Below, piece by piece: positions 1-38,000 of a stretch of 44,924 nucleotides of DNA. Position 1 is the first letter of the stretch. Each line of letters begins with the position of its first letter. The stretch comes from Perkinsus olseni. Lineage: Eukaryota. The position numbers were made by a program, and so were the translations under genes. The notes under the pieces are model-generated. The model did no database searches and had not been told where the DNA came from. It was given only the letters and a program-made list of their open reading frames with translations. Location of the stretch: contig JABANN010000267.1 in the NCBI GenBank assembly GCA_013115125.1, forward strand, positions 1 to 44,924. The letters are read 5' to 3'.

Positions 1-773
1 TCCTAATCACATCAAACCACAGCTAGAGGTTTCCCCCACAAGAAATCGTTCCGCATTTCTCTACGATGGAAATCTCTGTTGCCGGACCCGCCCAGAGTGC
101 CCTTAGCTTTACTGGCGTCGTCTGATGCTGCCATACTCTTAGTCAAACGGCAACCCTACGTTGTGGATTCCCTCATCGTCCTCGAGTCCCGTGCGATTTT
201 TTTCGTGAGACTGATAAATTATCAGTGTGGCAGTATTATCATTGATAATACTGCCACACTATCAGCGGAGTTGATACATGATAGTTATCTATGAGGATCC
301 TGCGAAACGTATTTGCTATCTAAGTTCCACGAAATACTTGGAGCCTCGGCGTGGCACTTGTAAGGGTCTCCACAGATAGGCTAGTTTATGCTACTCGTGA
401 TACACAACTAGTTGAACTAGCTGAGGGTCTAGGTAGGGTCAAGCTGCTTGACGACTTCAAAGAACCTTCCATTTTGAACCCATTCTAGACATTCTATTCT
501 ACATCCATTCTAAACCTCGAATTATCCGTACTGAAAGGAGTGGAAGTCATAATGGCTCCAGTTCCTGCAAGTTCAGGGTCCGCTTCAGATCCCGATTCAC
601 GCTTTCAGTATCCGCTCCCTGCCGGCCCTACACGACGTATCGGAGTGCGATGAACCTTACGCTCTTAGTAACTTTAACTGCTAGTTCAACGGGTCATTTT
701 CTAGCGCAAGGCTTCGTCGTAAGGGGCCACCCTCCCGAGGCAGTCTACAAATGGATTCCGAATTGTCAAGCAT

Positions 774-855
774 GGAGAACTATGGGAGTCGAACCCACGC
801 GAGTCTGGTCCAGTGGATATTAAGTCCACCCCCTTAACCACTCGGGCAAACACTC
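774..855 (-). pseudogene. Degenerate tRNA-Leu(TAA)
   Basis: Reverse complement reads GAGTGTT TG CCCGAGTGGTTAAGGG G GTGGA CTTAATA TCCAC, long variable arm, GTGGG TTCGACT CCCAT AGTTCTC. Type II cloverleaf with anticodon TAA, but the acceptor stem has a T-T mismatch and position 37 is T. Confidence 0.6.
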
Positions 856-1149
856 TCTCAACGTCTCTCCGACTGAGACACTTTGCGACGGATGGACGTG
901 GACTTACGTGAGCAACAGCGAGTAATATCTGCTCGACTTCGAAATTTCCAATCGTCGGGGACAATTTTGGGCGAGCGAGATTTAAATGCGCTGTCGCACC
1001 GAAATTGAAATATTGAAATTTCTCTTACGGCGCGTCTGAGCTAGTTCTGAAACTGAACCATACATCGGCTCTGTAGTTGAGTTTTACGGTGCTAAAATGA
1101 GTGCAAAATCTCAGAATTGGTTTATCAAACACTCCTTGGCAAGTCTTGG

Positions 1150-8645: not shown

Positions 8646-9329
8646 ATAGACGCTATCGGGCTGGGTAAAAGACCAATATGACTCGAGATTAATACGTTTG
8701 CAGGGTGGTGCTTATGCACTGCTTGTCCTCTGTCACAGAGGCTCTGTGTCCTTCACTTACATGAACTACTATTCCTATACAAGTGAGGTGAGGGAGGGTG
8801 CTTCAGCGCGCGACGCGCGCTACAGCCATAAAAGTGGGGTGGTGCAATAATTCGGTTCCGCTGTGGGTTACAACGTAGATCTCTATATATTATTACTCCA
8901 CGCGGTGCGATCTATCGAATGACATGAACTAATACGTCGGGCATTTAGTCCCAAAAAATCACTCCCTTCAGACACCTGTGCTTTCGCTATTCTTTTTTTG
9001 CATCTGCAGCCGCTGCAGATACGAATAGATGGAAAGAAACCGCTGATGAGATTTTTCATCCCCTTTGAGTGCCAGCGAGCATTAAGATTGGACGCGTCAA
9101 GAGCATCTTGAACATTAGTGGAGAGGCATGTGTTTCTTTCGACGGATGTACTGAGAATAACCGATGCAAGAGTGTATCAGGCTGATACACTCTTGCATCG
9201 GTTATTGTCAGCAGCTGATACTATCAGCTGTATTGGTTGGGTATGCGTAGCTGATGATGATGATGAGTGAGAGATTTTGATTTATCTCGGTGCTCGGCAT
9301 TGCTCACCCGTTTACGGTGGCGGAGAAAA

Positions 9330-9790: not shown

Positions 9791-12099
9791 TGGACCCGGA
9801 GAGGGGTCGAACAGGCTCCCTAGGCTCTTGGGCATTTGAACCTCGCGATTTAAATAATTTCGGTTGCAGTGTGGCTGACCTGTAAGTGGTACTCCAAGTG
9901 ATCCCTCAGTATGCTACCCCAGATGGAGGAATATGATGCTGATATGCTAGACCACACCGAGTCGGTGAATGATAACGGCCGGTCTGGCAGGGTCCAACTC
10001 TGCAGATATTAAAACAGGCATCTCAGCGAGCCTTGTCCGCTATTGGCGATCACAGTTTCTGGGATGATGAAACCGATCAAGTTGCGTTGTTGTTGTCGTT
10101 TACGCAGTTTTAAATCTTGGTTGCACGGTTGGAATAATTCTCAATTTTTTTCAACATTTCGCTTGTGGTGGACATAATTCGGCAGCTGTCGTCAGTGATC
10201 CTCATTTCGTCTCCCTTGCCAGGTTGATCAAATACGTCTGCGGCAGCATCGCGGGGGCTCTGTTTGCTCTTGCCCTGTGGGACGACTCACCGCTACTCCA
10301 CGTTGTTTTCGCAGGGAAAAATCTTCTCTGGTAAGACCCGTCTTGCCCTGCGTGTTCCTGACCTCTTCTCCACTCAGGTATCTTGCCGTTTCGGGCGCTT
10401 TGGTGTCTCTAGTGAGTCGCTCAGGGGATGATGAAGGCCGTGGTCAGACAGCAGATGGTGAGTGATGCTTCGCTCCGCTTTGATCGGAATATCTTGAAAT
10501 TTCGTGCCTGCCGTTCGTACGAATTTTCATTGCGGTTTTCTCGGCGCGCAAAAACATCACGAGCTTCGCATTTTTCTCTGCGTATCTTCCTGAGTACGAT
10601 TCCTTATTTTTTCAACCGTTCTTGAGTTTTATTCCATTCACCATAAGCTCATTCGAGCTACTTTTACGAGAACATTAACCGTACAGTTGCTTGACGGGAC
10701 TTCGATATTGCAAGTTGCTGCTATCATATCTGAGTACCATGGGAAGGTGCGTCGAAGTCAGCGCTCAGCTCGGAAGCATCGCCGCAAGTCTCACCGACCA
10801 GCAACCGTCGAGGAGTATCAAGCCCGGGTCGGAGAGCGAATTCTGGGTAGATCAGAATCTCGGAGATGAGATTCGACATCAGACGATCAGGCCCCATGGG
10901 TTATCTGAGAGTGCGGCAGTTTTGTCTTCATCGTCGCCAACTCCTCTAACTGCATGGGCGGCTACTATGAAGCTGCTGCAAACGGTGGGCTGTTTTTTTG
11001 TAGGATCTGAGGTTGATGCCGGGAATTTTCAGATACACTATTTACCGAAAATGACGACTTCGAGCCCACTCGGGTTCACTGTGCCGACGGATGAGTTTTC
11101 GGTAGCTCAGGGAGCTTTTATAACCTCTCTCTGGCGCTTAAAACTTCAGTATTGCTCTCTATAGAGAATGAGAGAAGATATTGATACTTGGAGAATCTCC
11201 AATGGAGATACTCCTCTGTGAGCTAGGTCTATCTGTTATCTGAGCAGCTAGATCTCGTTCTTAGTCCAGTTGTCTAGTTGTTCATCCATGGATTGATTTT
11301 AACATTAAACCAGCATCAGAATCATCACCATTCTTATATCAATTGCTGGACGAATCTCATCCATCGTCCACGACTAGCCTTCAGAAGGCGCCTGGACGTA
11401 ACTGAGGCTCCTCCACAAACTCACATCTCTCCACTGCATTGGTCGCAAAGCTTCCGTTGCTTGTGAAGGTTCGTAATCTGGCAATATCTTTTTCTCCGTG
11501 ATTCCCTCAGTCCAACCCAAGATGCCGTTTCGATTTCCTCGATAATTTCGAGCGGTGCAAGGCAGCGTTCCTCTCAGCATTCTACGTTGATCGGATACGC
11601 ATCATCCTCTTTGAGCTGTGAGCGCGGCTGGCGCTTCGCTCCGTCGTGATCGAGATTCGGGCATTCGTCAGGTATAGCATTATGCTCTGCCCCTTCCTGC
11701 TCAGTATATGGCTACCGGACTCAGTGGAGCATCTGGTAGGGAAGGCGAACTGCGAGAGCCGGGACAGTTTGTATGCCATTTTGGAATTGATTGAAATGGC
11801 GAGCGAGAATTGCATTACGGCGGGCTGTCAGGTTCAATTCGTGGTTGAGAATTCGTACGAGCACCCGACGCTGGGCCACTGGTGCGTTTACGGCTGCCTG
11901 GATGAGAGTAAGCTTGGTGCGCTTTACGTTCCTGATCTTTTCATGAATTTTCCCCTGACTTCGAGATGGAGAGCGTGAAAGCTCTCACGTCTTTGTGGAC
12001 GATCGTAGTGTGTTAGCGAGAGTCATTCACTTGTATATCGATCAACCGTTTCACCGCTTCGCCAAAACGTCCGCCGCGCCTGGAGTTGGTTGCTGTGTT

Positions 12100-15624: not shown

Positions 15625-18600
15625 ATGAAGCTCGAGTTGAAGCAGATCGAAAAAGACGGCAGCGGCCGAGTAGTTGTGATACCGGAAGAGTCCGAGGATA
15701 TTTGGCATCTCTACAATCTAGTAAGCGTCATCCCGATCGTCTCATCCGTAGTGAATTTTGCCCATCATCGTGATCGCCGAACCAACGCTCTCATCACATG
15801 GTATTACGTAAGTCGAAGACTCGAAAATCATGACTGTGTAAGTTTACAGTCCAACGCCAGCTATATAGTAGAGTTCGACTCTTGCTGATGTGCTCAGTCA
15901 TAGACTCTCTGTAGCGATTGATACGCAGTGCGACCAGACGGTTCGAAATCATCATCGGTCTTGCCAGTCCATATTTGTTGTAGAGCAAGCTTCAAGCTAG
16001 GATGCGCCCAACGTTCGGTTCACGCGCAGGAGAGCGTCGTTGAACCATGTGTTGGAGGGATCGAGACCTCACTTGCGTGTCGCAAGAGCAAATAGTATTT
16101 TCGCAGCATCTCATCCGACGCAAATTCACGTTCGGAGCAGAGTCTGTTACAAGTGACTCGCAGCAAGTCTCTTCAATAAACGACCATGTTTATTTTTTCC
16201 TGGTCTAGGTACAGCGAGGCGACCGAATCACGGCAAACACCGTACGGAAAGTATCTAAGGAAACGAGTAAGTAATAGGTATATTACTAAGATTCTTGAAG
16301 AGGAATGTTCAGGTAGCGGCAGCGTATCTTCGGAGAAGAGGCATCTGCGGCTCACCATTGCTGTCACCACGGTCGACTACGACGGGGAAGCTAATATAAT
16401 ACGGTGAGCAGGGATAGAACCTCTGCGGGTTGCATGGATAGTCCTAGGTTCTCCGGCAAAAACCGTACCGAAAGTCCTTATATCAAGCTCAACCAGCATC
16501 ACACGATAGAGGTTGGCCTGAACAATAAGGTATCTTAGGTCGCTGCTTGCTTCCCGCAAAATGTGTCGTCGGCAGATACAACTGTCCAAGGGACGCTGGG
16601 ACAGCATCGCCCTCGATATACTCAATGAAGCGACCAATGTAAGTTTTACAGATAACTTCACGGACGTACCCCGGCTGTTTGATTGGCGCCATCAGCTCTC
16701 TCTCTCCAGTCTGGGGGTGGGAATTGAATTCTTCGTTCCGAATCGACCTCAAAGATGGGTGCCGCCTGGTACGGGACGTGAGCTCTTTCTTTGAGTGGTC
16801 GTGAAGGATATACCGGAATTGTTTTTCCAGGATTTCCTGCAGCTCTTGTTGATCAGGTTTCAGCGAATGCCGAGCTAGCTGTCGTGCTCATCGACTCGGG
16901 TCTTGCGAATCTTTATCTCCTCACTCGCGTTCTCGCGAAAGAGATGGCGAAGTAAGACAAGTTGGTAGGTCCTGTCGGCCAGATGCTGTCGCTGTAGGGT
17001 GTCCGTCAACATACCGAAGAAGCGTAGTGGCAGTAGCGGCTACGACAAGGCTCTTAACAAGTTCTACGACCAAGTAAGATCTGCGGGCACCCCTTAAAAA
17101 ATAGTTCATGAAGACGTGTACTTTGAGTGAGCGGTGATGAAAATGAGGTACCAGACCGTAAGTCGCAGGCTGACTGATAGGACGGGATTCCCGCCTGAAG
17201 GTTACCAGCCAGTATGAGAGAGCATTCGTGGCATCACTTCGCGAGAGCATTTCACGAGAATCCATTGGTATTGAGAGTTTGACCTAGAAAAGAGGGGACC
17301 GTGGATACGGACTCTGATGAATCTGATATGTCGTTGCTAGTCTGACTCAGCCTGTTAAGGCGTTGGGCTTGAAACCCACACACACACTGAGTGTCTTTGA
17401 GGGCCTTATCGATGGCTCTTGAATTCTGTCGCGGAATTTCAGGTTTATGTCGCCATAAAGCAGCATGTTGACTTCGACAAGGTCAAGTGCATCGTTATTG
17501 CCGGCCCGGGCTTTGTTCGAGATGACTTCATCAAATACGCTCGAGAAGAAGCCACCAAAAAAGGTGGGTATCTTAGGTTGATCCTGGCACAGCACAGAGC
17601 GGTATCGATTAATTGATCGATTTTTCGTTCAGCCGACTCGCAGATGTTGAATGCTACAAAGAACAAGTTCGTTTCTTGCCATTGTTCGACGGCATACAAG
17701 CAAGGCCTTAACGAGCTGATGCAGGATGAGACGGTGAAGTCACAGGTGAGGTTGCGTAAGATACTCCCGCCGCACGGCGAAGAACTTCCAGGTGGCGGAT
17801 ACCAAAGCGATGTCGAACGTCGCTGCACTTGATCGTTTCTATACGATGCTGAAGAATGATCCGGAGCGAGCCGTCTATGGCCCAGGTGAACATGCTCGGC
17901 GACGTTGCCTTTTGAATTCTAGTGAGCCGTTTTGCTGTGTTGATTCACGACGGTGATCTCGCCGTGATGAACGACCAATGAATTGGGCGATTTTAAGGTT
18001 TGAATGCGACTGCCGCTCCGTTTCTTTCGGTTACGTTGCAGCTTTTCTATTGTAGGTCCGGTAACTAAGGCTGCCGAAATGGGTGCGATAGACGAGCTTC
18101 TTATCACTGATGGGCTGTTTCGTTCTTCGTCCGTTGGCGTGCGAAAGAGGTATCTTTCACCTTGTCGGCCTTCAGCAATAGTCGACCTCCAGATACGTGG
18201 CTCTCGTGGAAGAAGTTCAAGGGACCAGCCATGTCTTCATTTTCAGCACTCAGCATGTCAGTGGTGAACAACTTCAGAATCTAGCCGGCATAGCGGCGAC
18301 ACTCAAGTAGCATACTGGGTTATCATTGTCCAGGAGATGGACAGCGGACCTCTGAGAAGTGGTCACTTCTCCTGTTCGTGCGTTGAACGACTTTGGGACG
18401 GCCGTTCCAAGACGGTGTTTTACAGCGCATGGGAGGCCAACTCGCTGCCGGTGATTCAGTCCCGATGGTGAGCTGCTCAGAGCAGCCTGCTCTCCTGAGG
18501 GTTTCAAAAGTAGCAACCCTCAGGAAGGCAGCCTCCCGATAAAATTTGGTACTCAAACGACGGACGCGTGCCTTCTTTACCAGGTTTCCCTGCCCCGATC

Positions 18601-19390: not shown

Positions 19391-19775
19391 GACGACAAGT
19401 TCATAATCATGTTGCATTGCAACATGTTGCATGCAACAGTTGCAATGATCAGGGTAGATGTTCCGACTATCAATATTGTAAGATTTCAAGTAATCGCATA
19501 TTTCCTCAATGCTGCAAAACTTTTAAATAGTCGAATAACAGATGAACGAATGAAATTAGGCGCCATCAGGTGACCACGGTTACGACGACGTGGTTGAGGC
19601 ACTGGTGTGTGACATGACCAGGGCAGAATTACCACAATCATCATCAAAATAATCTTAGCAGCCTAGCTACTGGCAAGACGCTGAGGACCATTGGCGATCC
19701 TCACCATCAATAACATAGATATTCATAGTCGTTCATAACAACCTTCTCTAGGATAGACCGCATGACTTGTTGGAT

Positions 19776-22197: not shown

Positions 22198-23181
22198 GAT
22201 GAAGAAGAGATACGCTTTCTTTCCCATGGTGCTGGTAGATGTGTATAAATGACTCGTGATTACCATGTGCTGATGTGTGTAATGTTGTTGTATTTGTGTG
22301 TTCCAACTGGTTCTTGTGTGAAGGTTGAAGCCTTATGATGGAACTCCCGTCGTGAGCCCCAGAATACACATCCAAGGCATCGTTCAGCCTACCTAGAACG
22401 GCAATCCATCCCGTCAAGCGACTCTGGTCGTACTTGCAGGAGTCAAATATCGGACTGTGCTACGACGGACTCGCCCGAGGGACGCCAATCGAAGTGGAGT
22501 GCTACATTACAGAACCCCTCGCGGCAGGCGGTCTGTCGCCGGGTGGTCTGCTAGCCGAGCTCATCTCAAACGAATCATCCGGATTATAGCTAGTAATAGC
22601 GGATGATAGCTTAGTAATATCATCATTACTCACGGCCCTCTCGAGTGACGGCCCGTTACAAGCGGGTATGGTCTACCGGGACTACCGAGCGGTAGTACGC
22701 TCATGCTTTATCAAGTTTATGCAAGGATGATCCAGTCGGTTATGAAAACAATTTCATACGCAGTTAGGAAAGCTCGGCTGGTTGAGCAACGTGATTGTCA
22801 TCCGAGAGGTGGTCAGTTCGACATGTCACATTTTATTATGAAATTTTCATACCATTGTCTCTTGTTAGGGTTAAGCTTTCTTAACCTTTTCTTAGGTTAA
22901 GGCGTCTTCAAAATTAGGACCTCACTGTCCCTTGAGGAGTTTATTATGAACCGGCTTGACTCTTTTAACAATGACCTAAGGTTAGGACCCTATTTTCAAA
23001 GGCCTTCAAAATCATAACAAGTTAGGATTTCTAGTAAAATAGGCCCCAGGGTTCGACTCTCGGTGCCAGTGTAGCGTAAACAGTTGGCCGACGGTATCCG
23101 GGCCCGATAATCTTGTAAGGCACGCTACAGTACATGGTGTTACCACACCGGGGATTATCGGATAATCATTATCCAGACTCT

Positions 23182-23250: not shown

Positions 23251-23480
23251 TTTTCCCTCCGTGTCGGATCGACAAGCGGTTTCAAAAGCCCGGCGAAGTT
23301 CATGCTCTCAGTAATACTGGGAGCATGAAATCCGTAGCACTTCGAAAATTGAAGTTACTAACTTCAATCGCAAGTTGAATCGTCATTTTCTGGCGGGCGG
23401 CTTCCTCGTCAAGAGCCTCCCTTCCGCACCAGGTTGCAAAAGACTACTCTATGACTCAACTATGAGTGCTGATGAGATTC

Positions 23481-23699: not shown

Positions 23700-25565
23700 G
23701 TTTCAGCGAATTCCGAGCTAGCTGTCGTGCTCATAGACACGGGTCTTGCCAATCTTTATCTCCTCACTCGCGTTCTCGCGAAAGAGATGGCGAAGTAAGA
23801 CAAGTTGGTAGGTCCTGTCGGCCAGATGCTGTCGCTGTAGAGTGTCCGTCAACATACCGAAGAAACGTAGTGGCAGTAGCGGCTACGACAAGGCTCTTAA
23901 CAAGTTCTACGACCAAGTTTGATCTGCGGGCACCCCTTAAAAAATAGTTCATAAAGACGTGCACTTTGAGTGAGCGGTGATGAAAATGAGGTGCCAGACC
24001 GAAAGTCGGAGGCTGACTGATAGGACGGGATTCCCGCCTGAAGGTTACCAGCCAGTATGAGAGAGCATTCGTGGCATCACTTCGCGAGAGCATTTCACGA
24101 GAATCCATTGGTATTGAGAGTTTGACCTAGAAAAGAGGGGACCGTGGATACGGACTCTGATGAACCTGATATGTCGTTGCTAGTCTGACTCAGCCTGTTA
24201 AGGCGTTGGGCTTGAAACTCACACACACACTGAGTGTGAGTGTCTTTGAGGGCCTTATCGATGGCTCTTGAATTCTGTCGCGGAATTTCAGGTTTATGTC
24301 GCCATAAAGCAGCATGTTGACTTCGACAAGGTCAAGTGCATCGTTATTGCCGGCCCGGGCTTTGTTCGGGATGACTTCATCAAATACGCTCGAGAAGAAG
24401 CCACCAAAAAAGGTGGGTATCTTAGGTTGATCCTGGCACAGCACAGAGCGGTATCGATTAATTGATCGATTTTTCGTTCAGCCGACTCGCAGATGTTGAA
24501 TGCTACAAAGAACAAGTTCGTTTCTTGCCATTGTTCGACGGCATACAAGCAAGGCCTTAACGAGCTGATGCAGGATGAGACGGTGAAGTCACAGGTGAGG
24601 TTGCGTAAGATACTCCCGCCGCACGGCGAAGAACTTCCAGGTGGCGGATACCAAAGCGATGTCGAACGTCGCTGCACTTGATCGTTTCTATACGATGCTG
24701 AAGAATGATCCGGAGCGGTCCGTCTATGGCCCAGGTGAACATGCTCGGCGACGTTGCCTTTTGAATTCTAGTGAGCCGTTTTGCTGTGTTGATTCACGAC
24801 GGTGATCTCGCCGTGATGAACGACCAATGAATTGGGCGATTTTAAGGTTTGAATGCGACTGCCGCTCCGTTTCTTTCGGTTACGTTGCAGCTTTTCTATT
24901 GTAGGTCCGGTAACTAAGGCTGCCGAAATGGGTGCGATAGACGAGCTTCTTATCACTGATGGGCTGTTTCGTTCCTCGTCCGTTGGCGTGCGGAAGAGGT
25001 ATCTTTCACCTTGTTCCCCTTCAGCAATAGTCGTCCTCCAGATACGTGGCTCTCGTGGAAGAAGTTCAAGCGACCAGCAATGTCTTCATTTTCAGAACTC
25101 AGCATGTCAGTGGTGAACAACTTCAGAATCTAGCCGGTATAGCGGCGACGCTCAAGTAGCATACTGGGTTATCATTGCCCAGGAGATGGACAGCGGACCT
25201 CTGAGAAGAGGTCACCTCTCCTGTTCGTGCGTTGAACGACTTTGGGACGGCCGTTCCAAGACGGTGTTTTACAGCGCATGGGAGGCGAACTCGCTGCCGA
25301 TGATTCAGTCCCGATTGTGAGCTGCTCAGAGCAGCCTGCTCTCCTGAGGGTTTCAAAAGTAGCAACCCTCAGGAAGGCAGCCTCCCGATAAAATTTGGTA
25401 CTCAAACGACGGACGCGTGCCTTCTTTACCAGGTTTCCCTGCCCCGATCTGGACGACGAGTATGCCCTTACTGAGCAAGAGGCCTTGGGGTCATCGGACG
25501 ACGAAGGCCGAGATGGAACGGCTGAGAGTTCGGAGCTTGATGATAACTTTCTGGCTGGCATATGA
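23700..25565 (+). pseudogene. PELO: 5'-truncated pelota copy (exons 6-13)
   Basis: Lacks exons 1-5 and a start codon; intron-7 donor changed GTAAGA>GTTTGA at 23917; missense changes such as RAVYG>RSVYG and FST>FRT. Confidence 0.85.
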
Positions 25566-25987: not shown

Positions 25988-26739
25988 CGGGGTGTTCAAT
26001 AAACCTCTCCCGAAACTCGAGAGCGCTTCCGGGAGCGAAGTTTGCCAGAACGTGTTCCAAAGATCTGCCTCAGGAGCGCTTCCAGGAGTGATCAGATCAC
26101 TGTGATCTCAGGGTCGCTCCTGAGCGTGTTCAATAGAGTTCTCGCACGCCCTCAGGAGCCCTCCTGGGAGAGCACGCTCCTGAGATCATCTGAGCCTTGA
26201 GATTTGCCCTGGCTGGGCGGCTAAAGAATAACGAAAAGACGCAGTATGACTAATACCTGTCGCGTGACGTTCGAACTAAGCTAGATAACAAGTAGTTGCG
26301 CCCAAAAAGGTGATGTGATAGAAGTGCTGTTGGGGGCTTCGAGGAGAACTTGTGAGATGTCTGTGTCGAGGAGTATGGCGGTCTCTTTCGGCACCCCAAC
26401 ACGGCGGCCATTCGCGACGCTTCTCGTCTGGGCGAGCAGTAAGACGGCGTGCTACACTCCCGGAGACCCCAAGTTCGATCCGCCCTCAGGGCAATTAGTA
26501 AACATCCATGCGATTTGGCGTTTCTCTGACGGTGCGATACATGCATCGCTCCCAGGAGCCTTCTTCGAGAGCGCTTCTGAACTGCGAGTTTATTGAACAT
26601 GAGTTGAGTTCTCTTTCCGGAGCTCTCCTGAAAAGTTTCAGGAGCGCGTCTATTGAACGGAATCTCATGAGCGCTCTCCAAAAGCGCTTTCCAAGAGCGC
26701 TCCTGGGAGTGAACTCGACCTTGACTATTAAATACCCCG
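25988..26739. mobile_element. MITE/non-autonomous DNA transposon, 752 bp
   Basis: Absent from copy A at the equivalent site. TIRs CGGGGTGTTCAATA / TATTAAATACCCCG (12/14), 3-bp TSD ACT, subterminal repeats (GTGTTCAATA, CAGGAGCGCT). Confidence 0.85.
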
Positions 26740-26897: not shown

Positions 26898-27229
26898 GAT
26901 GGTTAACTTGTTAAACTAGGTTAAATACCGATACGGATGGTCGCGTCGCTCCGCCATCGTAGTAGTTGGTGGCGTAGCCATGAAACCGTGAGGCGAAAGG
27001 GCTCCGACTACGTCCCACCTGCCGTGACCCAGTTAAGGCTAGACGGCGATGATTGATTCTCTCCCCGTCCCACCACTCCTGGGAGCAAGTACCGAATAGG
27101 GTGTAGACACGCACTGTCAGCAGACTCAGGCTCTGGGTCGCCAAGTGTCTTGCCCTCGTCGGTGCTTCACTGGCCGGTTCGTACTGAACCGACCTAACAG
27201 ACCCACGCGACCAGGAGTGGGATATTTAA
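26898..27229. mobile_element. ~330 bp insertion, possible small mobile element
   Basis: Absent from copy A; short inverted motifs AGGTTAAATA (26918) and TATTTAACCT (~27223) near the ends. Confidence 0.45.
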
Positions 27230-28633: not shown

Positions 28634-29335
28634 TCTACGAAGGCTTACGGGTAACACGCTGCCCACAGCTTCAAGTTTCCAGGGGATGATTCACCTTCAA
28701 TCGGACTTATTCGTTTTATTGAATTCGAGCTCGTTGCCGCTTGAGGAAAATATCCCCGATCTCTCGATTTAAGCCTCCGCCTAGCTACGCTTAAAAGGAG
28801 CATGGTTCGCGGGAGCGCTGTCTCCATGACAGACGACTGTCTACTGGCCGCAACAAATTATGAATAACCTGTGATTAGATGACGCCGAGGGGAAGAACCT
28901 CAAAGTGCAGTTCAAAGTCATTCATACGAGCCACGAATTCTATATGCACGTACGGAGTGTTAACATGCCTCCAGTCCTCGCTGAGGGCCACACGCGTGGG
29001 AATGGACTCGTAGCATGAGGAGTACGTAGACAGAGTCTGTCTGACAGACACGAGCACAGGTTTTTGAGGGTACTACCAATGGTTGCCAATCGGAACTAGA
29101 TTACGAGAATCCTAAGCATGAACTTCAAGGCTGAGGGAACGGATCGAGAGCTCGGCGATGAGCGCGACAGCCATGAGCATGAGTGAGTGAGTGAGAATAC
29201 GATTGAGCAAAAGATTACGTACTGCTTCTTTGCCTCCTCGCAGTCTGCGGCATCAGAAGCGAGATTTGCTCTATCTTCCCCCGTCCTGGAAGAGAGAGGA
29301 AGGATCACGGACCGTGATTCACGGTAGATGTTAGC

Positions 29336-29576
29336 CAAAGGTCATCAGTTCAATCCTGGCATGTGGCTGTGCTGTTTGGTGTGCTCGCGTTATCCCATAA
29401 TGACTGAAGGTGGGGATATCGCGCCATGGATATTTGGCCACTCAGTTTCTGGGCGCCATTTTACGTGAGCCGCTTTAGCTTGGTGGTAGAGCGTCTGCTT
29501 TGGAAGAAGAAGGTCGTCAGTTCGATCCTGGCAAGCGTTTGGAACGTTTGGTGAGCTCGCATCATTCTTTTATGAC
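29336..29576 (+). pseudogene. Third decayed copy of the tRNA-Thr array
   Basis: 3' tRNA half, the shared spacer, then a full-length unit at 29469-29540 with loop TTTGGAA and mismatched anticodon and acceptor stems. Confidence 0.7.
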
Positions 29577-30913
29577 GGTATCTCCGCTTTTGGACCCAAA
29601 ACCGTCGCCAAAGTAAAAACACGCATAAGGTAAAATGTGCGAATATGAGCTAGGAAGAGTGAGGAAAGGCACTCTATGGAAGAACACGAAGTGTTGTGCA
29701 GTACAACTGCGAGGCGCATGAGGGAAGCAGGTCGAATCTAGGGCGAGCGAGATACTGTCCGGATAGTGATGGCTATTTTCGTGGACAGGAGCTGGATGCG
29801 GTCCGATACGGTAAGCGTTGTCAGCTGTTTGATTCTTACAGGCACTAGCGTCGAGGCTCAGTTTTTACCCACCCACAACCACCCGCAGGAGGAGGTCCCA
29901 CCGAGTGTTACAAGGGTTGTGAGTGTCCAAGCGGGACAGAGATAGTTTCTGAGAAATCCTCAGTGAGAATGCAACACTCGGCGGGTGCATGTCTCTGATC
30001 GCCAGGGAGGGATGAATTGCGTTAGCGATTTAGTTTGGGTGGAATTCGAAGAGCAGCAGTTGTATCGGACAGCACTCACGAAATTTGGGACTCGAAATGT
30101 CGGAGCCTTCGACCTCCGGCCCGGTTTCGGAGGCTGGAACGTCGAAAAAGACCCCGGTAGAAGCTACTCAAGACGTATGACGAGGCCGAATACCACCATT
30201 AGAGATCTCTTCCTTTGCCCTGAATAGTTCTGGGTTGGATGATCCAACCCAATCCAACTTGGATCGTAAGAGCCGAGCCATTATTGCGGCCATAAGGGCA
30301 ATCCGAGCCGTCTGCCCCTTGTGATCCCACTGAAGTGCCAAAATAACGGGTTAAACTGTTGACAGATAGTCCGAGCCGCAGCATGCGAATATGACCGTAA
30401 GAATTCATGTACGAGTCCTACACCCAGATATCCACAACCAGTTTTTTTCGCGGGGCACTCTGAATTTTGGCGCCATCGTGCGCCGTAGCGTAGTACCAAC
30501 CACACCCGCCCGTCTGAATGCTGTTTGTGTCACAGTGTGACATCACACAGAGATGACTTAGTTATTGATCGTGAAACTTAAGCAACTAAAAAGACATCTT
30601 AGTTAGACTCGCAAGGCATAAGCCTGATGGTGATGTAGCCTACTACGACCCAGACACTAAGTATGCGAGTGAGAAGTGGCCATGGCTCGGCCCGAGCAAA
30701 GCACGCGTCCCTACGATTGCACGCAAGCGCGTCAAGCGACCAGGCGGTCGCAGATCTGTTTCGAAAGTCCCGCTGAGACCATAGGAGACACTTGGCAACG
30801 GATTCAGAAAGAGCGCCATTGGCGAGCTCGATGCTATTTCGAGCAGAAAAGGGTGAGTTGTAGTTACACTAAGATCGTGAGAAATAGTTCCGATGACTTG
30901 CTAATCTTCCCTT

Positions 30914-32721
30914 TCATCTCTTGATGCAAGCTGACGCCTTGATGTTATCGGCGAATTTCGGTAAGAGGCCGGGATCCTTCATGATGGCGCAAGCCCCTGA
31001 AGGGTCACCTTCGACGTTAGTCTGTCATGTCAACCCTCCTTGATACCTCTAGGATATCCCGGAGTTATACGCTCCACGTACCCAATACCATCCTCGCCCC
31101 AACTCGGACCCCAGCTGTTGAGAATCTTCCAATATCTGATCGGGACTCGAACGTGTGGTGACACTGTATCACTGATACACGATCAGAGTTTACTGGTAAA
31201 GCTGGTGCGTTATATGAGAGAAGGCGGGGCTTACGTAACGCTTTCAGGGGTCCTGCCATATCCGATGATGGTCACTTCATGGTCCAAGTTGCCTTCTCCG
31301 CATTCTTTAGCTGGAAGACGAATGAATGGTTCAACGCTAGTTGAGGGGTGAGACCGTGCGCAACATAATATTACTCGTCATAACGCCGGATCGCTAGTTC
31401 CGGAACCGAGCACTGGAAGCATGAACACCGACCGAGACTGGTCCATCAGCCACGGCGCCACGGAGAATAAGCTCGTCCTCTGGTTTGATGGCAATCCCCC
31501 GGACGACATCCCGGGCCTGAGATGAGTCTAGTGGTAGCAGCTCGGGGGCGAGGCTGGCCTCCCATCGAGTTCGAGCTGATACTGTGGCCTACAGTCTGCG
31601 GCGTTGGTAGCATCTTCTACTCACCGCAAGGCATTGATTAGATGGTGAGGTTACGACAGAATCCTTGCACTTCCCGTCCTTCGCTGTGTAGGGGTATGCG
31701 CTCTCCTTCACTATGCCCTGGCTCTGGACGTAGACCCAGGTACGCGTCAGTGTTCCACCCGTGCAGCCCCTGAGAATAAGAGCTTGAATCAGTAACAGTA
31801 TACCCTGAAAATTCATTAGGAGCGCAACTCTCGCCTTATCAAATGAGCCTTGTTGAAGCTGGATAATTAAACTCACTTGTTGCCACACAACGTACTGCAG
31901 TCCACAATCTGCTGAACAGAGAATGGAATGAGTGGTTTGATACCAGTCTTGATCTGGAACCGGCCTTCGGCCACAGCTGCCAGGAAGACGAATTGAGCTC
32001 GAGGCAGAATGAATCGTCATTCTCACTGGCTGCGTGGACAGCATAGCAAGAGTTACATGTCAGTTGATCTCTCACCGGTCCAACTGCACCAGCTGCAACC
32101 CAATCGACAGACTCTGGGAGGTTGCTGAGCTTGGGCGAGTCCAGATACGAGATATCTAGCATGAGACAGACCACAAATTTTGAGGCTACTCCCGGAGTAG
32201 TACTCCGATAAGTATCTCACTTAGTCTCGCACTTACTCGATAAAGGGATGGTTGGCGTCATCGTATGACCGCACAAAAACCCCGCTGTGAATTCTTCTGC
32301 TGATAGGTCCGCAACAGCGTTGACGTACGCGACATACTTGGAGCCGATTCCTGAGTCAGAAATCCAATGGGGGCCATGTATGGCTGACCCGTGCCATTCA
32401 CAGCAAGCCATCTACCTGCTTCTTCATCATGCTCCTCGTTGGCGGCAACAATATCCATGAGTGTCTCAGCGAACAATCCCCGACGCCTGTTGCGCTCGGC
32501 TTCGGAGTGGTACTCTTTCTGGTATCTGTGATTAACCAATGTATGCTGCCACCGACCTCGCTGTGCATTCCAGGGTTCTCGCCACGTCATACCCGGCTTG
32601 GGTCCTACCTTACGATGAAATCGGCGAAGGCTTCGTCGATCTTCTGTTCACTGAGAGCTTCACTAGTCAACGCCTGAAGAATTGTTAACGCCACGAGGAT
32701 TGTGAAGCCTTTAAAGCGCAT
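30914..32721 (-). pseudogene. Cathepsin L-like papain (C1A) cysteine protease with an in-frame stop
   Basis: Signal peptide, I29 prodomain (ERFNIN-like, NAVADLSAEEF), LPESVDW, QLTCNSCYA (catalytic Cys), GCTGG, DHEVTIIGYG (His), YWKILNSWG (Asn). TAG at 31394-31396 replaces the usual Tyr in FRN*RSG. Confidence 0.88.
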
Positions 32722-34855
32722 ATCCAGGCAACAATGGGATGCTAAACTGTAGCGATAGCGGGGTCAACCCCCTAGCGTTTGCCGCTACTGCGTTAGCGAG
32801 GGAAGACGACTACTTTAGCGGCTAAAGTAGTCGTCTTTCCTCAGTTCTAACTTCTAACTCGAAAATTTCGCGGCGAAACAACGAGTCGAGAGGCCGAGTA
32901 GAGAGAGGCCGCGCCCTGACTTGGCGCGAATTTGCTAGCTAATACAGAGGCCTAGAGCCTTTTCAGAGCCAACAACATACTCGGCTGTATTGCTAGCTTG
33001 AGAGGCCGCTAGCTAATACAGCTGGTCTGTCTACTTCATCCACTGCGCACGACGTCACGCTGTCTCCTTAACGATTTCACCACACGCTATGTTTCATACT
33101 CGATACCTTCAGTCTCGTCACTGACGATGCTACAGTACCAATCTTCTCTGTCATTTTTGATGCGGACGCTCAGCACCGCTCATCTCTCCAGGCTGAGCGA
33201 TAGATATCTTACTAGAGTGACTGCGAAGTTCTCAGTGGTCCCTTATCTCTGGCTGTACCTCTTCGTCGGTACATTTTTTCACCATTCACTCAACCTCAAA
33301 GAATGCAGATCATGCTGAGGTAAATCCCGGATGGTTTTATCGACGGCGAAACCGTCGATTATCGGGGACGAGAGGGACAAGATTTGTGTGCTAGCGACAT
33401 TGGCTAGAAAGCTAGCCAGGATGGATGCAGTTTCTCGTGATACTGATCGTTGTCGAGTTGTAGCATCTTAGTACTGCGGTATATCTTTCTCAACGAAAGG
33501 GAGGCGGTTCTGCGAAACACGTGAACCTAAACCGCCCTTCGTCTGTCAGTTTACCCTCATGTTTCCCTTGGTAACGATTCGAGCGGCTCTGCAGCCTTTG
33601 CGTGAGATAGATACGTCATATAGACGTAGGCCCTCGCTGGACTGGCCGCTACACGCGGATGGGTTGTGTATCCGCTGTGCGCAGCCAAACGCGGGAACTG
33701 CTGGCGCAAGGCCACTGGAGGGCAGTCGGTGTCTCCCCTTGTTGCCCTCTCCGCCTTCAGGTCCGTCGCGGCCACCGCCTCGACTCCCAATCCCCGTAGT
33801 CAGAGGTCATGGTGGGTTGGGACAAGCACCGGTGCCCCCTTTCCTCAGCTTGCGGGAAGAGAAGAGAATGAAAAGTGCCCGTGCAATGCAAAGTGCCAAG
33901 GCTCACCGGTGCTCTGGCTCATTCGAGTTTAGAGCTCACACTTAGGCCGTCGAGTTTACGAAGAAGACTGATTCGAGGGTGCTCATCACCTCAGTTGACT
34001 CGTCGTAGGACCTTCTTAGAGACGAAGCTTCTTCTCACTCGATAGAGTCTATCGAGTGACGCTGAGCTAAGACAGCCTTAGTAAGACAACCTCAGTTAGA
34101 CTGCACATGCAACTCCTGGGTTCGTTTGTCGGGGCTGCAGCTCCAACATGCTACATTTTTTCAATAAAGTCAATCGGGAAACGCGGAATAGTGTAGTGGT
34201 TGACCTCCACAGTGGAGGCTCCACTATTGTCTATACATATAAATACCAGAGCTGCGCCTCGATTGAAGCCCGTGGAACCTGGTTCGATGGCTCTGGTTCG
34301 CTCCACGAGCGTGCTCTGCCCCTTGAATACATCCATGACGAAGGCAACATAAGTGAGCTAAAAATCCGCGAACAGTCTGCGGATTTTTGTTCGGAATGTG
34401 AAAATGAACTCCGAATGCACTCACCCAGAATATCGACAAACTACCGCCCATCCAATCCCCGCCCTACTCAACGGGGCTCCACTTACGATTGGGATCTCCA
34501 GGCACTGGGATGATTGCAGAGACCACCTGACACGGGAGAGCGCTGAATCATCACAGGTATGTATAGCGGCGAGTTGCTAATCATGATTAAATCATCAATG
34601 TGGGTATGGTTACAGGCTGTAATCTATATACCGGCGGTATAATACCGCTATAACTTATAGCGGTCGGCTATCAGGGGAGTCGGTAGAGCTCCCGACTTGC
34701 ACGACGATGGCCACAGGTCCGAATCTTCAAGATTCGAGATTCAATCTTGGCAGGAGCAGAAGCCTAAGTGTCGACGGAGGTGGTGGTGGAGCCGGCGGCG
34801 CGCTACTTTTAGGCATATGTGACGCCGCGGCGTCACATACGTCTTAAAGTAGCAT

Positions 34856-35070
34856 GGACGAAACGCACGTGTACGAGAGGCTTGCCCGAAAAGCCCTGGA
34901 AGAAAGAAGCGGAGTAAGAGCATGATTGGACGAAACGGCGTGAATAAAAGAATTATGCATGAATGACTCGTGGACAAATGGGATGTGTACGAAAGAGGCT
35001 GGACGGAAGTAACACGGACGAAAAAGCGGGATGAACCCGGTCATGGCTGAAACAATCTTGGACGAAACCT
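34856..35070. repeat. Cluster of short GGACGAAA-type motifs
   Basis: About 7 copies of (G)GACGAAA variants at irregular spacing. Confidence 0.5.
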
Positions 35071-38000
35071 ACAATGTAGTAGTGTAGCCCTATACAGTTG
35101 TACTCTATGTAACTACTCTAGGGTGCCTTCAGAAATGAGAGTGTAACTCACCAACGCAACTGATATCAGACGAGAGAAAACTGATTATCACTTGATGCTC
35201 ATCTGGATGGGAGTTCTGTGACAGAACTCCTGTCACAGCAGGCTATATTTCAAAGAGCTGTCTTGAGCTAAAAGTGACCCTCAACGAACCGCCACAGAGG
35301 AATAGTGAAAAACAGTAGTGCGGAGTAGAGGATTCTTCGGAAGATCTTCAACGACTGACAGTCGTTGAAGATCACCACAGTGTTATGAAGATAACACATA
35401 ACAGTGTTATGAACGGCAGAAAAGTGCGAGTTACGAATCATTTAACGTACTACTAAATCTGTAGCACAGATCATAAACAGGGCATCACGGTCCGGGCTAG
35501 AAGGAGCAACAGAACTGCGGAACAGAACGCCCGAGATCCCGACCGCAGCTTGCTCTGGATAGTGCCGTGAGGGTTCTGATCCCAGTAGACGAGCTGCTGC
35601 AAGTCGCATCCTCGGCTCGACGAGATTGATAGATTACGGACGAATCGGCTTACATCTTCGGGCATGGCACATAGCATCCCCCAGTTTCCATTGCCATCAT
35701 CCAGCTTAATTAGCCGTATGCGAGAGCCGCTCTCAGAGTGGACCCCATCCAGTGGATAGGGAGGTCTCCACTCCGGAGGATCACCGCGAAATGCTGGCGA
35801 CAACGAAAACCAAGTTAGGCGCTGTTCCGTGGGCGACAGTCGACAGCTTTCAAGTCAGTGAATACGATGAAGTGAACACCAGTATGTGGCTTTGAGCCAG
35901 CCCGTCGGCACGGTTTGAGACCATAATCACCCGAACCCGTAGAGACGGCCGTCGAACCCGAACACCAGCAGATGACTAACGATGCGATATGCCCTGATTC
36001 GAATATCGGGAATTGGCTCCATCTCGTACGGACCGTACGGTACGATTACCGTACTACGGTGTACACTGTACAGTTCACCGTGTAGTACACGGTGTGTACT
36101 ATTACAGTCACACGTGTATCCGTCCACACTGCAAAATGTCTCAAAACATGTGAAACCCGAGATGATTCTGCTGAAACTCAATATTTATCGAAACACCCTT
36201 CTTATTATCTGACTCAGATAATCTGAGATACAGAGAGGACAAAAGGTGTAATATTCTGCTTCCACCTAAAATCCAACTCCATCGGGCCTGTGCTCCAGGA
36301 ACACACCGCTTGTCTGACGATGGAGACACACCCAGGTGATGACTAGGGACTCGTGAGAAAAATCGAGCCACTCGCACTTCGCACTTAGCTTTCGTACTCC
36401 AAACCAAGCCAGGATATTCACCAGTTTATAAGCGAATATGTACGAAGTGTCCCCCGATGAGAATACACGAGGCATACACAAGGTGTCCACCGTCGGGAGC
36501 ACACGGCCATACAAAAGGTATAACCGAATGCCCCTTCCGATATCACTTAAAGCTAGTGACTTACTACGTGCTGCAGCGCCCGCGACACCCCACTGTATGG
36601 GTATAGCTGCAGGATCAGGTTCCACGGCGTGGTACACGGTAAAGGCTCTCAAAGGATGCCCAATGTTCGAAGACCAACAACCAATTTGTGATGAAACATA
36701 AGACTGCTGTGATAACAGTTCTCGGCATTGAGCAGACGTAATCGTGTTCAAGACAGAGGCTTCGAGATTGCTTATTCTTCTATGCCATAGAATCTAATGA
36801 ACGAGACAGTGTCTTGAGAAATGAGCCTTGTTGGAATTGATAGTTCTCCTTGGATTAGCAAATCCTACTGAGATTAAGGATTTTATTGCAGATTCGGGTA
36901 ATTTTCCGAATCCTAGCGCTAGTACCTACCATGATTCACAGGCTTTGAGCTGTTAATATCGTTAATATCACTGAGACAGTTTCGTAAGTTTATATTGTAC
37001 AGATGATTCCCCACGGAAGACGTGGGACAAGCCGTTCTCGCGTTCAGTTTAAGTGACTAGATTCGAACCAAGGGAGCCTTAACATACTAAACGCGGTGCT
37101 CTCATGACATAACGGCGTGCCAGCGACCATGACCAACATTGGATGCGAGAGCGATCATCAATCAAACCCGTTGTCAAAGTCCCCGAAAGGATGCTCAGCT
37201 CGAATGCTGCTGGGTGGAGCTTCAGTCAGGCTCAGCCGATTCCCGAATGGCATTCGCTGTAGCATAGCGCGGAAGGAGCCATCGCCAGGCCCTCCAGCCG
37301 AAGCCTGACAGGATCACTGCCATCGAACTACGAATGCACCTCCACATTTCACAATCGGAGTCGCAACTCACCTCGCAGCCTTTAGAGGAGGCAAGGTACA
37401 GCCCCCAAAGAAGTATGAGCATCAAGGAGCCCTCCACGGCGAGGACTGCCAACAGAAGCTCTCCCGAGGGAAAAGCGTACGTCGCGTACCTTGAAACGTT
37501 GGTTCCCGCGAGGTGCCGACCGAAGTGGCTCTACTTACCAGTCGCAAAAGGGAGTGATGCCGAGCCAGATAAGAAGCACTATACCCACAACTCCTCTTTC
37601 ACCGGCCGATTTCAGATCATCCATGGAAGTGGATGTGCGGAGAGATTGTATCACGCGCTGTGCTATGAGCAGCCGAGAGGCGATCAATAGGAGCGACAGC
37701 CGCCTGCAAGAACGGGTGAACACCTGAGGCTCCGCACGACTTCACCGAGGCTTACATATCATTCTCCTTTATCATGGGCCACGGGACGAGCAAGAAGCGA
37801 TCGCTGTCGGACTCGCCTTCCCGAAGGAGACAGATGAGATCAGCCGCCAGGATGCCCAGAATCTGACAGGAGGGAATCTCGCGCGCGCAGAAACAACCGA
37901 CCTACCCGAACCGACAGGTCAGGACCCGGATGGTTGGAGCACACCATTAGAAGCAGTACGCAGCACAGGCCGCAGTCGCAGACAGCCGCCAGCATGTGAG

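What the first reader, a model, noticed from the sequence alone, without database searches (positions are those of the whole stretch)
210..36094. Window-wide excess of unrelated palindromes with exactly one central base: candidate hairpin/snap-back repair signature
Seen: perfect inverted repeats with a 1-nt centre and arms of 10 bp or more at 224-260 (18), 9156-9206 (25), 23348-23368 (10), 30231-30251 (10), 32803-32837 (17), 34035-34059 (12), 34644-34664 (10), 35210-35230 (10) and 35343-35373 (15), plus 23299-23329 (15, one mismatch) and many 6-9 bp ones. Random expectation for 10 bp arms is ~45000/4^10, about 0.04. The arms share no consensus, so this is not one repeat family, and they sit in noncoding, scrambled patches. 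Established: hAT/RAG-type transposases leave hairpins on flanking DNA whose opening gives palindromic footprints, and Pol theta-type end joining can make fold-back insertions. Inference: this genome has a recurrent break-repair or excision process that writes odd-centred palindromes, possibly undescribed in this lineage.
Basis: partly seen in the sequence, partly recalled or inferred. Interest (0 to 1): 0.8.

Follow-up and report, generated by a model that had tools for sequence, protein, structure and literature searches.

The report
Transposon excision scars in Perkinsus
The odd-centred palindromes are real and are best read as scars left each time a cut-and-paste transposon of the hAT type jumped out, a known mechanism that has marked this shellfish parasite's DNA about once per kilobase.

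Summary
All nine listed perfect palindromes, and the tenth with one mismatch, are at the stated coordinates. Inverted repeats peak sharply at a 1-nt spacer. There are 40 with 7-nt arms against 2.0 per shuffle, and 9 with arms of 10 nt or more against 0.05.

The arms have a hidden rule. Many form 22-nt units T[0:7]+revcomp(T)+T[1:8] for an arbitrary 8-mer T: 13 perfect, 8 with one mismatch, 0 in shuffles. Among all geometries tested, only "8-bp duplication, 1-nt apex" stands out. Longer palindromes pair up by the same rule (for example 9156-9206 with 9212-9230).

This is the published signature of hAT (Ac/Ds) excision: an 8-bp target duplication and flank hairpins centred on the complement of the base next to the element (PMC5873905). 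Here the hairpins were opened 8 to over 25 nt from the tip and joined through the 8-nt complementary tracts.

The scars recur in another study's contigs and in both copies of an in-window duplication, so they are not artefacts. The window is from a Perkinsus species. No donor element lies in it.

The mechanism is known. The density and the long tracts in this lineage were not in any paper my searches found.

The parts
8727..8748 (.). 22-nt scar T[0:7]+rc(T)+T[1:8], T=CCTCTGTG. It lies inside the Transib-like element, upstream of its ORF.
   Evidence: Perfect fit; palindrome centres 8734 and 8741.
11188..11209 (.). 22-nt scar, T=TTGGAGAT
   Evidence: Perfect fit.
18472..18493 (.). 22-nt scar, T=GCTGCTCT. 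Its paralogous copy is at 25321-25342.
   Evidence: Perfect fit in both copies. The copies are aligned, so the scar is older than the duplication.
25321..25342 (.). Paralogous copy of the scar at 18472-18493
23153..23174 (.). 22-nt scar, T=GATTATCC
   Evidence: Perfect fit.
26087..26108 (.). 22-nt scar, T=AGTGATCT
   Evidence: Perfect fit.
29028..29049 (.). 22-nt scar, T=AGACAGAC
   Evidence: Perfect fit.
29304..29325 (.). 22-nt scar, T=ATCACGGT, next to a tRNA-like repeat
   Evidence: Perfect fit; context.
32186..32207 (.). 22-nt scar, T=CTACTCCG, inside an intron of the cathepsin-like gene
   Evidence: Perfect fit; intron 32138-32269.
34204..34225 (.). 22-nt scar, T=CCTCCACT
   Evidence: Perfect fit.
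34627..34664 (.). 22-nt scar (T=TATACCGC), overlapped by a second palindrome with 10-nt arms (34644-34664). Probably two successive events.
36206..36227 (.). 22-nt scar, T=TATCTGAG. One palindrome extends to 9-nt arms.
39267..39288 (.). 22-nt scar, T=CAGTGGCC
9156..9230 (.). Composite scar, T=GTATCAGC. Left hairpin tract with 25-nt arms (9156-9206), 5 nt of filler, right hairpin tract with 9-nt arms (9212-9230).
   Evidence: The predicted 7-mers of the target 8-mer are found 15 nt downstream and 31 nt upstream; sequence.
210..260 (.). Composite scar. 8-nt-arm palindrome (210-226) and 18-nt-arm palindrome (224-260) sharing TGATAAT. One of its two centres is not the expected complement.
19408..19444 (.). 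Composite scar, T=TGTTGCAA (9-nt and 6-nt arms). Also present in the paralogous copy near 27380-27415.
30231..30264 (.). Composite scar, T=GTTGGATC. Left tract with 10-nt arms abuts a right tract with 6-nt arms.
34720..34749 (.). Composite scar, T=GAATCTTG. Left tract with 8-nt arms, short right tract, second copy AATCTTG.
32798..32842 (.). Long single odd palindrome. 17 perfect arm bases, 22 with one mismatch. No exact partner copy found.
   Evidence: (pair I7).
34035..34059 (.). Single odd palindrome with 12-nt arms. No exact partner copy.
   Evidence: Reproduced in a contig of run X9.
35210..35234 (.). Odd palindrome with 10-nt arms. It reads as a 22-nt scar with one mismatch (T=GTTCTGTC). 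In strain X6 the stretch 35197-35286 is replaced by 5 letters.
   Evidence: table 5c.
35343..35373 (.). Single odd palindrome with 15-nt arms
   Evidence: Reproduced in a contig of run X9.
23299..23368 (.). Two odd palindromes: 15-nt arms with one mismatch (23299-23329) and 10-nt arms (23348-23368).
34796..34853 (.). A scar of a different geometry. CGGCG + C + an even palindrome of 26-nt arms (3 mismatches) centred CGCCG|CGGCG. This fits a 5-bp duplication with an even hairpin (Transib/RAG type).
   Evidence: (pair I6). Transib's 5-bp, GC-rich targets are described in PMC1131882.

Best explanation
[quoted passage not shown] This is the hAT type.

Inferred steps. (1) The element inserts and duplicates an 8-mer T. 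(2) On excision, each flank is sealed into a hairpin whose apex is one unpaired base, the complement of the T base that touched the element. (3) The host opens the hairpins far from the tip, 8 to more than 25 nt away, on the 3' side. This unfolds them into 3' tails that start with revcomp(T) on one side and T on the other. (4) These 8-nt tails are complementary. Annealing and flap trimming give exactly T[0:7]+revcomp(T)+T[1:8], a 14-nt net insertion with two overlapping 7-arm odd palindromes. If the ends are joined without that annealing, longer single or paired odd palindromes remain.

Shown here: the geometry, its statistics and its reproducibility. Inferred: the identity of the element, the polarity of hairpin opening, and the joining pathway.
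For: There is a sharp peak at spacer 1.

Of the 62 odd palindromes with arms of 7 nt or more, 30 have the predicted 7-mer of T within 40 nt on the predicted side. A shuffled-T control gives a mean of 0.5 and a maximum of 3 in 200 repeats. Five loci have non-overlapping tracts where the rule is not automatic: 210-260, 9156-9230, 19408-19444, 30231-30264 and 34720-34749.

22-mers fitting T[0:7]+rc(T)+T[1:8] number 13 perfect, 8 with one mismatch and 9 with two. Ten shuffles give 0, 0 and 0.2 per shuffle.

I scanned all geometries T[0:t-k]+rc(T)+T[k:t] for t=4-12 and k=0-3. Only (8,1) stands out, with 13 against 0.0. No geometry with t of 6 or more exceeds 2.

Of 41 'single' 6-7-arm palindromes, 8 have a third arm matching at 6 of 7 positions. 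The null rate is 0.5% of 20,000 random positions. These are decayed 22-mers.

[quoted passage not shown] It reports arms up to 20 nt in S. cerevisiae and microhomology in 88-89% of yeast footprints. [quoted passage not shown]

The palindromes are not artefacts. Contigs of run X9, from another study, are identical across several of them. Both copies of the in-window duplication share 18472/25321, 19032/25893 and 18715/25564.

An even palindrome with a 5-bp duplication and a 26-nt tract suggests that tip-distal hairpin opening is a property of the host.
Against: The window holds no hAT or other matching transposase domain. 204 of 217 frames of 70 aa or more were scanned, and the only Pfam hits were eRF1, Peptidase_C1 and I29.

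No element with an 8-bp duplication and inverted ends lies in the window: 0 hits with exact duplications and 0 with relaxed ones, where shuffles give 0-2.

No empty or occupied allele was seen. In-window paralogues gave no clean comparison, and the one read-laying run did not show the indels at the scars.

32 of 62 palindromes have no exact partner copy.

One of the ten centres that I read in the five non-overlapping loci is not the expected complement (242).

The excess of 7-arm repeats with a 4-nt spacer is unexplained.

I found no paper reporting hAT elements in Perkinsus.

The 1-nt offset of the hAT nick (Hermes) is recalled from memory. The passages I read did not state it.
Confidence: 0.8

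Rival explanations
1. The mechanism is the same (insertion with an 8-bp duplication, flank hairpins, tip-distal opening), but the element is not a hAT. It could be a Mutator-like element, a Merlin-like element or an undescribed superfamily.
For: The MULE Muta1 forms flank hairpins and has 8-9-bp duplications (PMC5499845). Two preserved Merlin-like transposase genes (Merlin makes 8-9-bp duplications) are reported in P. marinus without recognisable ends (PMC8101967). No hAT was seen in the window.
Against: With donor duplications present, over 90% of Muta1 excisions in yeast are precise. MULE duplications are mostly 9-10 bp, and geometries with t=9 or t=10 give no signal of their own. No hairpin chemistry is known to me for Merlin. 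The odd centre at the complement of the adjacent base is documented for Ac/Ds.
Confidence: 0.12
2. Transposon-independent break repair made the palindromes. Candidates are fold-back (snap-back) synthesis by a Pol-theta-like polymerase, or template switching that perfects quasi-palindromes.
For: Some single palindromes have no partner copy (32 of 62). At 19032/25893 an inverted 8-mer replaces tRNA-like sequence without a change of length. An unexplained class has 4-nt loops.
Against: Neither process creates a direct duplication of exactly 8 nt around the inverted copy. Neither explains a unique (8,1) geometry or a centre that is the complement of the partner copy's end base. Fold-back priming should give a range of loop sizes, not a spike at 1.
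Confidence: 0.04
3. The resident Transib/RAG1-like transposons (one lies at 6416-8980) produced the odd palindromes.
For: A hairpin-forming transposase family is probably present and recently active here. [quoted passage not shown]
Against: Transib makes 5-bp duplications, and I recall that RAG-type hairpins are even. The (5,0) geometry gives 0 hits. The element's own flanks (CTTT / CTTTC) do not fit 8 bp. The one even palindrome with a 5-bp duplication shows what such a scar looks like, and it is different.
Confidence: 0.02
4. The palindromes are an assembly, amplification or library artefact.
For: The window has a scaffold gap. The best-matching runs may be the source of the assembly.
Against: Short-read contigs of a run from a different study and year reproduce several palindromes with 0 differences. 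Both diverged copies of an in-window duplication carry the same scars. Scars show graded decay: 13, 8 and 9 with 0, 1 and 2 mismatches. No artefact known to me writes an 8-bp direct duplication around an inverted copy.
Confidence: 0.02

Closest known systems
Ac/Ds (hAT) excision footprints in S. cerevisiae, Arabidopsis and Candida. Source: PMC5873905, passages read, citing Lazarow 2012, Yu 2004, Huefner 2011 and Coen 1986.
   Same: An 8-bp target duplication. Palindromic insertions centred on the complement of the base next to the element. Arms up to 20 nt in yeast. Joining mostly through microhomology.
   Different: Those are experimental events at single reporter loci. Here there are about 40-50 natural, fixed scars in 39 kb of a perkinsozoan genome. 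One deterministic product dominates (the 22-mer made through the 8-nt tracts). Arms reach 25 nt or more. No donor element is nearby.
Tam3 footprints and the hairpin model of Coen et al. 1986. This is cited in the passages; I did not read the paper itself.
   Same: Inverted duplications of target-duplication sequence left at excision sites.
   Different: As above: single plant loci against a genome-wide record. Details of Tam3 footprints are recalled, not checked.
P nucleotides at V(D)J coding joints, and Transib excision (PMC1131882).
   Same: Flank hairpins opened off-centre leave palindromic additions.
   Different: Those have a 5-bp duplication and even-centred hairpins (evenness recalled). 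P tracts are typically very short in vertebrates (recalled). Only 34796-34853 in this window fits that geometry.
Muta1 (MULE) excision (PMC5499845 and PMC5225508).
   Same: Flank hairpins and 8-9-bp duplications.
   Different: Excision is mostly precise when duplications flank the donor. Odd-centred palindromic footprints are not described in the passages I read.
Templated or fold-back insertions of polymerase-theta end joining (recalled; no paper read).
   Same: Short inverted copies of flanking sequence at repair junctions.
   Different: No target-site duplication. No fixed 8+1 geometry.

Membership tests
hAT-superfamily excision footprint | Direct duplication of 8 bp of target sequence around the scar | tested here: met
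   Only t=8 gives a signal: 13 perfect units against 0 in shuffles. 30 of 62 palindromes have the partner 7-mer, against 0.5 expected. The 8-bp rule for hAT is stated in PMC1131882.
hAT-superfamily excision footprint | Palindromic insertion centred on one base that is the complement of the duplicated base next to the element | tested here: met
   There is a spacer-1 peak, and k=1 is the only offset with signal. In the five non-overlapping loci, 9 of the 10 centres are the complement of the partner copy's end base (my reading). The feature is stated for Ac/Ds in PMC5873905.
hAT-superfamily excision footprint | A hAT transposase, or hAT-type elements (short inverted ends plus an 8-bp duplication), present in the genome | not testable with these tools
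   No whole genome is held for this window. Within the window there are none: Pfam on 204 of 217 frames and element scans giving 0 hits. No paper on hAT in Perkinsus was found.
hAT-superfamily excision footprint | Alleles or orthologues with the empty site (single T) or the occupied site | tested here: inconclusive
   Diverged strains X6 and X7 show gaps over 33720-34552 and a replaced patch at 35197-35286, but the indels at the scars were not listed. In-window paralogues gave no clean comparison.
Transib/RAG-type footprint | 5-bp duplication and an even-centred palindrome | tested here: not met
   (t=5,k=0) gives 0 hits, and spacer-0 repeats are at chance except for one. That one, 34796-34853, does fit and is filed separately.
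Mutator-like element footprint | 8-10-bp duplication, flank hairpin, mostly precise excision | tested here: inconclusive
   An 8-bp duplication is compatible. t=9 and t=10 show no signal of their own. Whether the MULE hairpin has a 1-nt apex was not stated in the passages read.
Polymerase-theta snap-back or template-switch insertion | Inverted copy of adjacent sequence without a target-site duplication | tested here: not met
   The inverted copy is flanked by a direct duplication of the same 8-mer at 13 perfect and 8 near-perfect loci.
Assembly artefact | Absent from independent data; not inherited by paralogues | tested here: not met
   Contigs of run X9, from another study, are identical across several palindromes. 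Paralogous copies share scars.

The most novel reading that the evidence does not exclude
Perkinsus carries a low-copy but very mobile element that makes 8-bp duplications. It may be hAT-like, an undescribed superfamily, or a domesticated transposase still acting genome-wide. None is resident in 45 kb, against some 40 scars. The host resolves transposase-made hairpins by a tip-distal, microhomology-driven route. As a result, transposon scars of 14 nt or more are a leading source of small insertions in its noncoding DNA. They would form a readable archive of past transposition and of hairpin repair in an alveolate.
Probability: 0.25. Interest if true: 0.7.

Novelty: new member of a known kind. 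Interest (0 to 1): 0.5.

Why it matters
Excision footprints are normally a few bases long and invisible in genome sequence, so the historical flux of cut-and-paste transposons cannot be counted. Here each excision left a recognisable scar of 14 nt or more with a built-in record of its target 8-mer. That has three consequences.

(i) Past insertion-excision events can be counted and dated. The window holds about one scar locus per kilobase, with graded decay.

(ii) The positions at which the host opened hairpins and the microhomology it used can be read directly. This gives a natural data set on hairpin-end repair in a lineage where these searches turned up nothing on the subject.

(iii) Anyone annotating Perkinsus genomes should know that these palindromes are scars, not regulatory hairpins or assembly errors.

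It also points to an active element that makes 8-bp duplications and that none of the Perkinsus papers these searches found describes. All of this rests on one 45-kb window.

Tried and rejected
Whole-genome search was not possible, because no genome is held for this window.

Pfam on 204 of 217 stop-to-stop frames of 70 aa or more gave only eRF1, Peptidase_C1 and I29. I left out the 13 frames between 23696 and 25590, which lie in the second copy of the duplication.

Scans for resident elements with 7-9-bp exact duplications gave 0 hits. A relaxed scan for 8-bp duplications also gave 0, where shuffles give 0-2.

I looked for empty-site comparators in three places. None gave a clean scar-versus-empty pair: the in-window duplication, tRNA-like repeats and repeat D10. 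In one search a 14-nt gap sits at palindrome 21283, but it falls where the homology ends, so I do not count it.

Other geometries (t up to 14, k up to 6, one mismatch allowed) gave no second family.

The 7-arm/4-nt-spacer class is unexplained.

The target 8-mers show no strong consensus. T is somewhat favoured at positions 2-3 (11 and 14 of 25).

Earlier-findings look-ups held nothing that bears on this.

I looked for a statement of the 1-nt offset of the hAT nick in PMC4763223 and PMC10368747 and did not find it. PMC321453 (Yu 2004) is not held.

For the ORF of the element at 6416-8980, Pfam and PDB sequence searches found nothing. Of 24 remote relatives, 4 gave sub-threshold DUF1280 hits.
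Full report
**1. The observation**

The window has 44,924 bases with one 96-N gap at 39088-39183. The tenth, 23299-23329, has 15-nt arms with one mismatch.

In total 87 odd-centred palindromes have arms of 6 nt or more. Against 20 dinucleotide-preserving shuffles, spacer 1 gives 25/40/6/7/9 repeats with arms of 6/7/8/9/>=10 nt, where 8.9/2.0/0.7/0.05/0.05 are expected. Spacers 0 and 2-20 are near expectation, with one exception noted in section 6. The excess is real and specific to a single central base.

**2. The palindromes are not artefacts**

I laid contigs of four public runs on 28700-38900. A run from a different study and year (X9) has contigs with 0 differences across 33720-34111, 34321-35059, 35267-35480 and 35723-36142. 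These cover the palindromes at 34047, 34589-34728, 35358, 35404 and 36032-36085. Run X2, which may be the source of the assembly, is identical over 29377-30706 and 33772-38900.

Three palindrome loci occur in both copies of an in-window segmental duplication whose copies have since diverged: 18472/25321, 19032/25893 and 18715/25564.

**3. The hidden rule**

The 7-nt-arm palindromes come in pairs whose centres are exactly 7 nt apart (13 pairs). Written out, each pair is a 22-mer T[0:7] + revcomp(T) + T[1:8] for some 8-mer T. An example is CCTCTGT CACAGAGG CTCTGTG at 8727-8748.

A direct scan finds 13 perfect units, 8 with one mismatch and 9 with two. Ten shuffles give 0, 0 and 0.2 per shuffle.

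I scanned every geometry T[0:t-k] + rc(T) + T[k:t] for t=4-12 and k=0-3. Only t=8, k=1 stands out, with 13 against 0.0. No other geometry with t of 6 or more exceeds 2. A further scan to t=14, k=6 found no second family.

The longer palindromes obey the same rule without overlapping:
- 9156-9206 (25-nt arms) defines T=GTATCAGC. Its partner is 9212-9230, whose right arm starts with TATCAGC and whose centre is the complement of T's first base.
- The same holds at 19408-19444, 30231-30264 and 34720-34749.
- It also holds at 210-260, with one deviant centre.

Overall, 30 of the 62 palindromes with arms of 7 nt or more have the predicted 7-mer within 40 nt on the predicted side. A shuffled-T control gives 0.5.

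Among 41 apparently single 6-7-arm palindromes, 8 have a third arm matching at 6 of 7 positions. The null rate is 0.5%. Many singles are therefore decayed 22-mers.

The 25 target 8-mers I compiled are all different and show only a weak preference for T at positions 2-3.

**4. What this means**

An inverted copy flanked by a direct duplication of 8 nt is what remains when a transposon inserts with an 8-bp target duplication and later excises through hairpins on the flanking DNA.

The single central base is the complement of the duplicated base that touched the element. [quoted passage not shown] Arms reach 20 nt in S. cerevisiae, and 88-89% of yeast footprints use microhomology (PMC5873905, passages; see also PMC1978519). 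[quoted passage not shown]

I recall that Hermes nicks one nucleotide into the flank, which explains the odd apex. I did not find that sentence in the passages I read.

My derivation of the 22-mer is an inference. Suppose both hairpins are nicked 8 nt or more from the apex, on its 3' side. The two 3' tails then begin with revcomp(T) and with T. They anneal over 8 nt, and flap removal gives exactly T[0:7]+rc(T)+T[1:8], a net insertion of 14 nt. Joining without that annealing leaves the longer tracts, as at 9156-9230, where tracts of 26 nt and 10 nt (apex included) are separated by 5 filler bases.

**5. Host and elements**

A 463-codon frame at 7323-8711 (minus strand) is 98% identical to a partial Perkinsus olseni protein and 91% identical to a P. 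marinus protein. The window therefore comes from a Perkinsus species, an alveolate parasite of bivalves.

No whole genome is held for this window. No transposase domain of the hAT, MULE or Merlin kind appears in 204 of 217 frames. No element with an 8-bp duplication and inverted ends lies in the window.

So there are 44 clusters of palindromes with arms of 7 nt or more (58 clusters at 6 nt or more) in the first 39.3 kb, and no donor. This need not be a paradox. Scars accumulate with every jump, while copy number need not rise. The ratio of 13 perfect to 8 one-mismatch units suggests by rough inference a mean age of a few per cent divergence, which means long-continued activity.

**6. Other items**

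*A second hairpin-forming family.* The element that holds the 463-codon frame spans 6416-8980. It has inverted ends of about 140 nt starting CACAGGTG. Its flanks are CTTT / CTTTC.

A structure model of a 758-aa relative is poor (pLDDT 52.6). Even so, Foldseek's 32 matches with E at or below 0.001, as far as listed, are all RAG1, HzTransib or BbRAGL, and Hermes comes only at E 0.06. VIA-align gives Z 8.3 to RAG1 (rmsd 8.9 Å, 225 residues aligned) and Z 8.1 to HzTransib (rmsd 7.9 Å, 245 aligned). These are middling values, but the top 28 rows are all RAG1, HzTransib or BbRAGL. The ESM Atlas pointed the same way, weakly. It is probably a Transib-superfamily transposon.

*A matching even-centred scar.* The one long even-centred palindrome is 34802-34853, with 26-nt arms, 3 mismatches and centre CGCCG|CGGCG. 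It is preceded by CGGCG plus one C. That fits a Transib-type scar: a 5-bp GC-rich duplication as described, and an even hairpin. It has a 1-nt left tract and a 26-nt right tract. This is one case only. It suggests that opening hairpins far from the tip is a property of the host and not of one element.

*Unexplained.* Eleven inverted repeats have exactly 7-nt arms and a 4-nt spacer, against 1.55 expected. Only one of them reads as a scar. None of the 87 odd palindromes with arms of 6 nt or more is centred beyond 39,281.

**7. Comparison and novelty**

The mechanism is the known hAT footprint mechanism. Its RAG-type and Pol-theta variants are not supported for the odd palindromes.

Two defining features of a hAT footprint were tested and met: the 8-bp duplication, and the odd centre at the complement of the adjacent base. 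The presence of hAT elements in the genome could not be tested. Empty and occupied alleles were inconclusive.

Seven literature searches found no report of such scars or of hAT elements in Perkinsus. Dada and Merlin-like sequences are reported there. Supplementary files were not consulted.

I rate this as a new member of a known kind, of moderate interest. The value lies in the density, the long tracts and the deterministic 22-mer, which make past transposition and hairpin repair readable from sequence alone.

Noticed in passing
6416-8980: A 2.6-kb element with inverted ends of about 140 nt starting CACAGGTG, which resembles the recombination-signal heptamer. Its flanks are CTTT/CTTTC, and it has frames at 7323-8711 and 6679-7407 on the minus strand. 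The close relatives that carry a source name are all from Perkinsus, and 1195 remote relatives turned up. Fold matches go almost wholly to RAG1, HzTransib and BbRAGL, from a low-confidence model. It is probably a Transib-superfamily transposon in a perkinsozoan. The two frames overlap in different phases, so this copy may be broken or may have an intron.
   Followed up: partly
34796-34853: An even-centred palindrome with 26-nt arms and 3 mismatches, preceded by CGGCG plus C. It fits a Transib-type excision scar: a 5-bp GC-rich duplication, an even hairpin, and a hairpin opened 26 nt from the tip.
   Followed up: partly
4369, 7030, 16270, 20766, 22741, 22869, 25196, 32006, 33401, 35380, 42691 (start positions): Inverted repeats with exactly 7-nt arms and a 4-nt spacer are in excess: 11 observed against 1.55 per shuffle. 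Their loops share no consensus. Only the one at 25196 reads as a hAT-type scar.
   Followed up: partly
39300-44924: No odd palindrome with arms of 6 nt or more lies in the last 5.6 kb (0 of 87), although the density elsewhere is about 2 per kb. GC skew turns negative there. No Pfam hit falls in this stretch.
   Followed up: no
16700-20450 and 23540-28630: A segmental duplication carrying eRF1-like exons (eRF1_1, eRF1_2 and eRF1_3 hits at 15.5-18.3 kb). The second copy has extra segments of 755, 332 and 204 nt. At 18347-18371 and 25196-25220 the two copies differ by two substitutions that turn one inverted repeat into another.
   Followed up: partly
774-855(-), 26800-26873, 29468-29541, 43966-44039; 19190-19257: tRNA genes for Leu(taa), Thr(cgt), Pro(tgg) and Ala(cgc), a weaker tRNA match, and several tRNA-like pseudo-copies with shared flanks. 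Some scars sit inside or beside these copies (19032, 23491, 29304).
   Followed up: partly
30900-32650 (-): A cathepsin-L-like gene (I29 propeptide plus Peptidase_C1). At least nine short introns of 50-139 nt show up as joints in a cDNA-like contig of run X9. That contig differs from the window, so it may come from a paralogue or another allele.
   Followed up: no
38946-39183: A 26-nt tandem repeat with at least 4 overlapping copies, running into the 96-N scaffold gap.
   Followed up: no
35197-35286: In diverged strain X6, a contig replaces this 90-nt patch with 5 letters (tables 5 and 5c). The patch holds the palindrome at 35210-35230. This is a presence/absence difference that I could not resolve further.
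   Followed up: no
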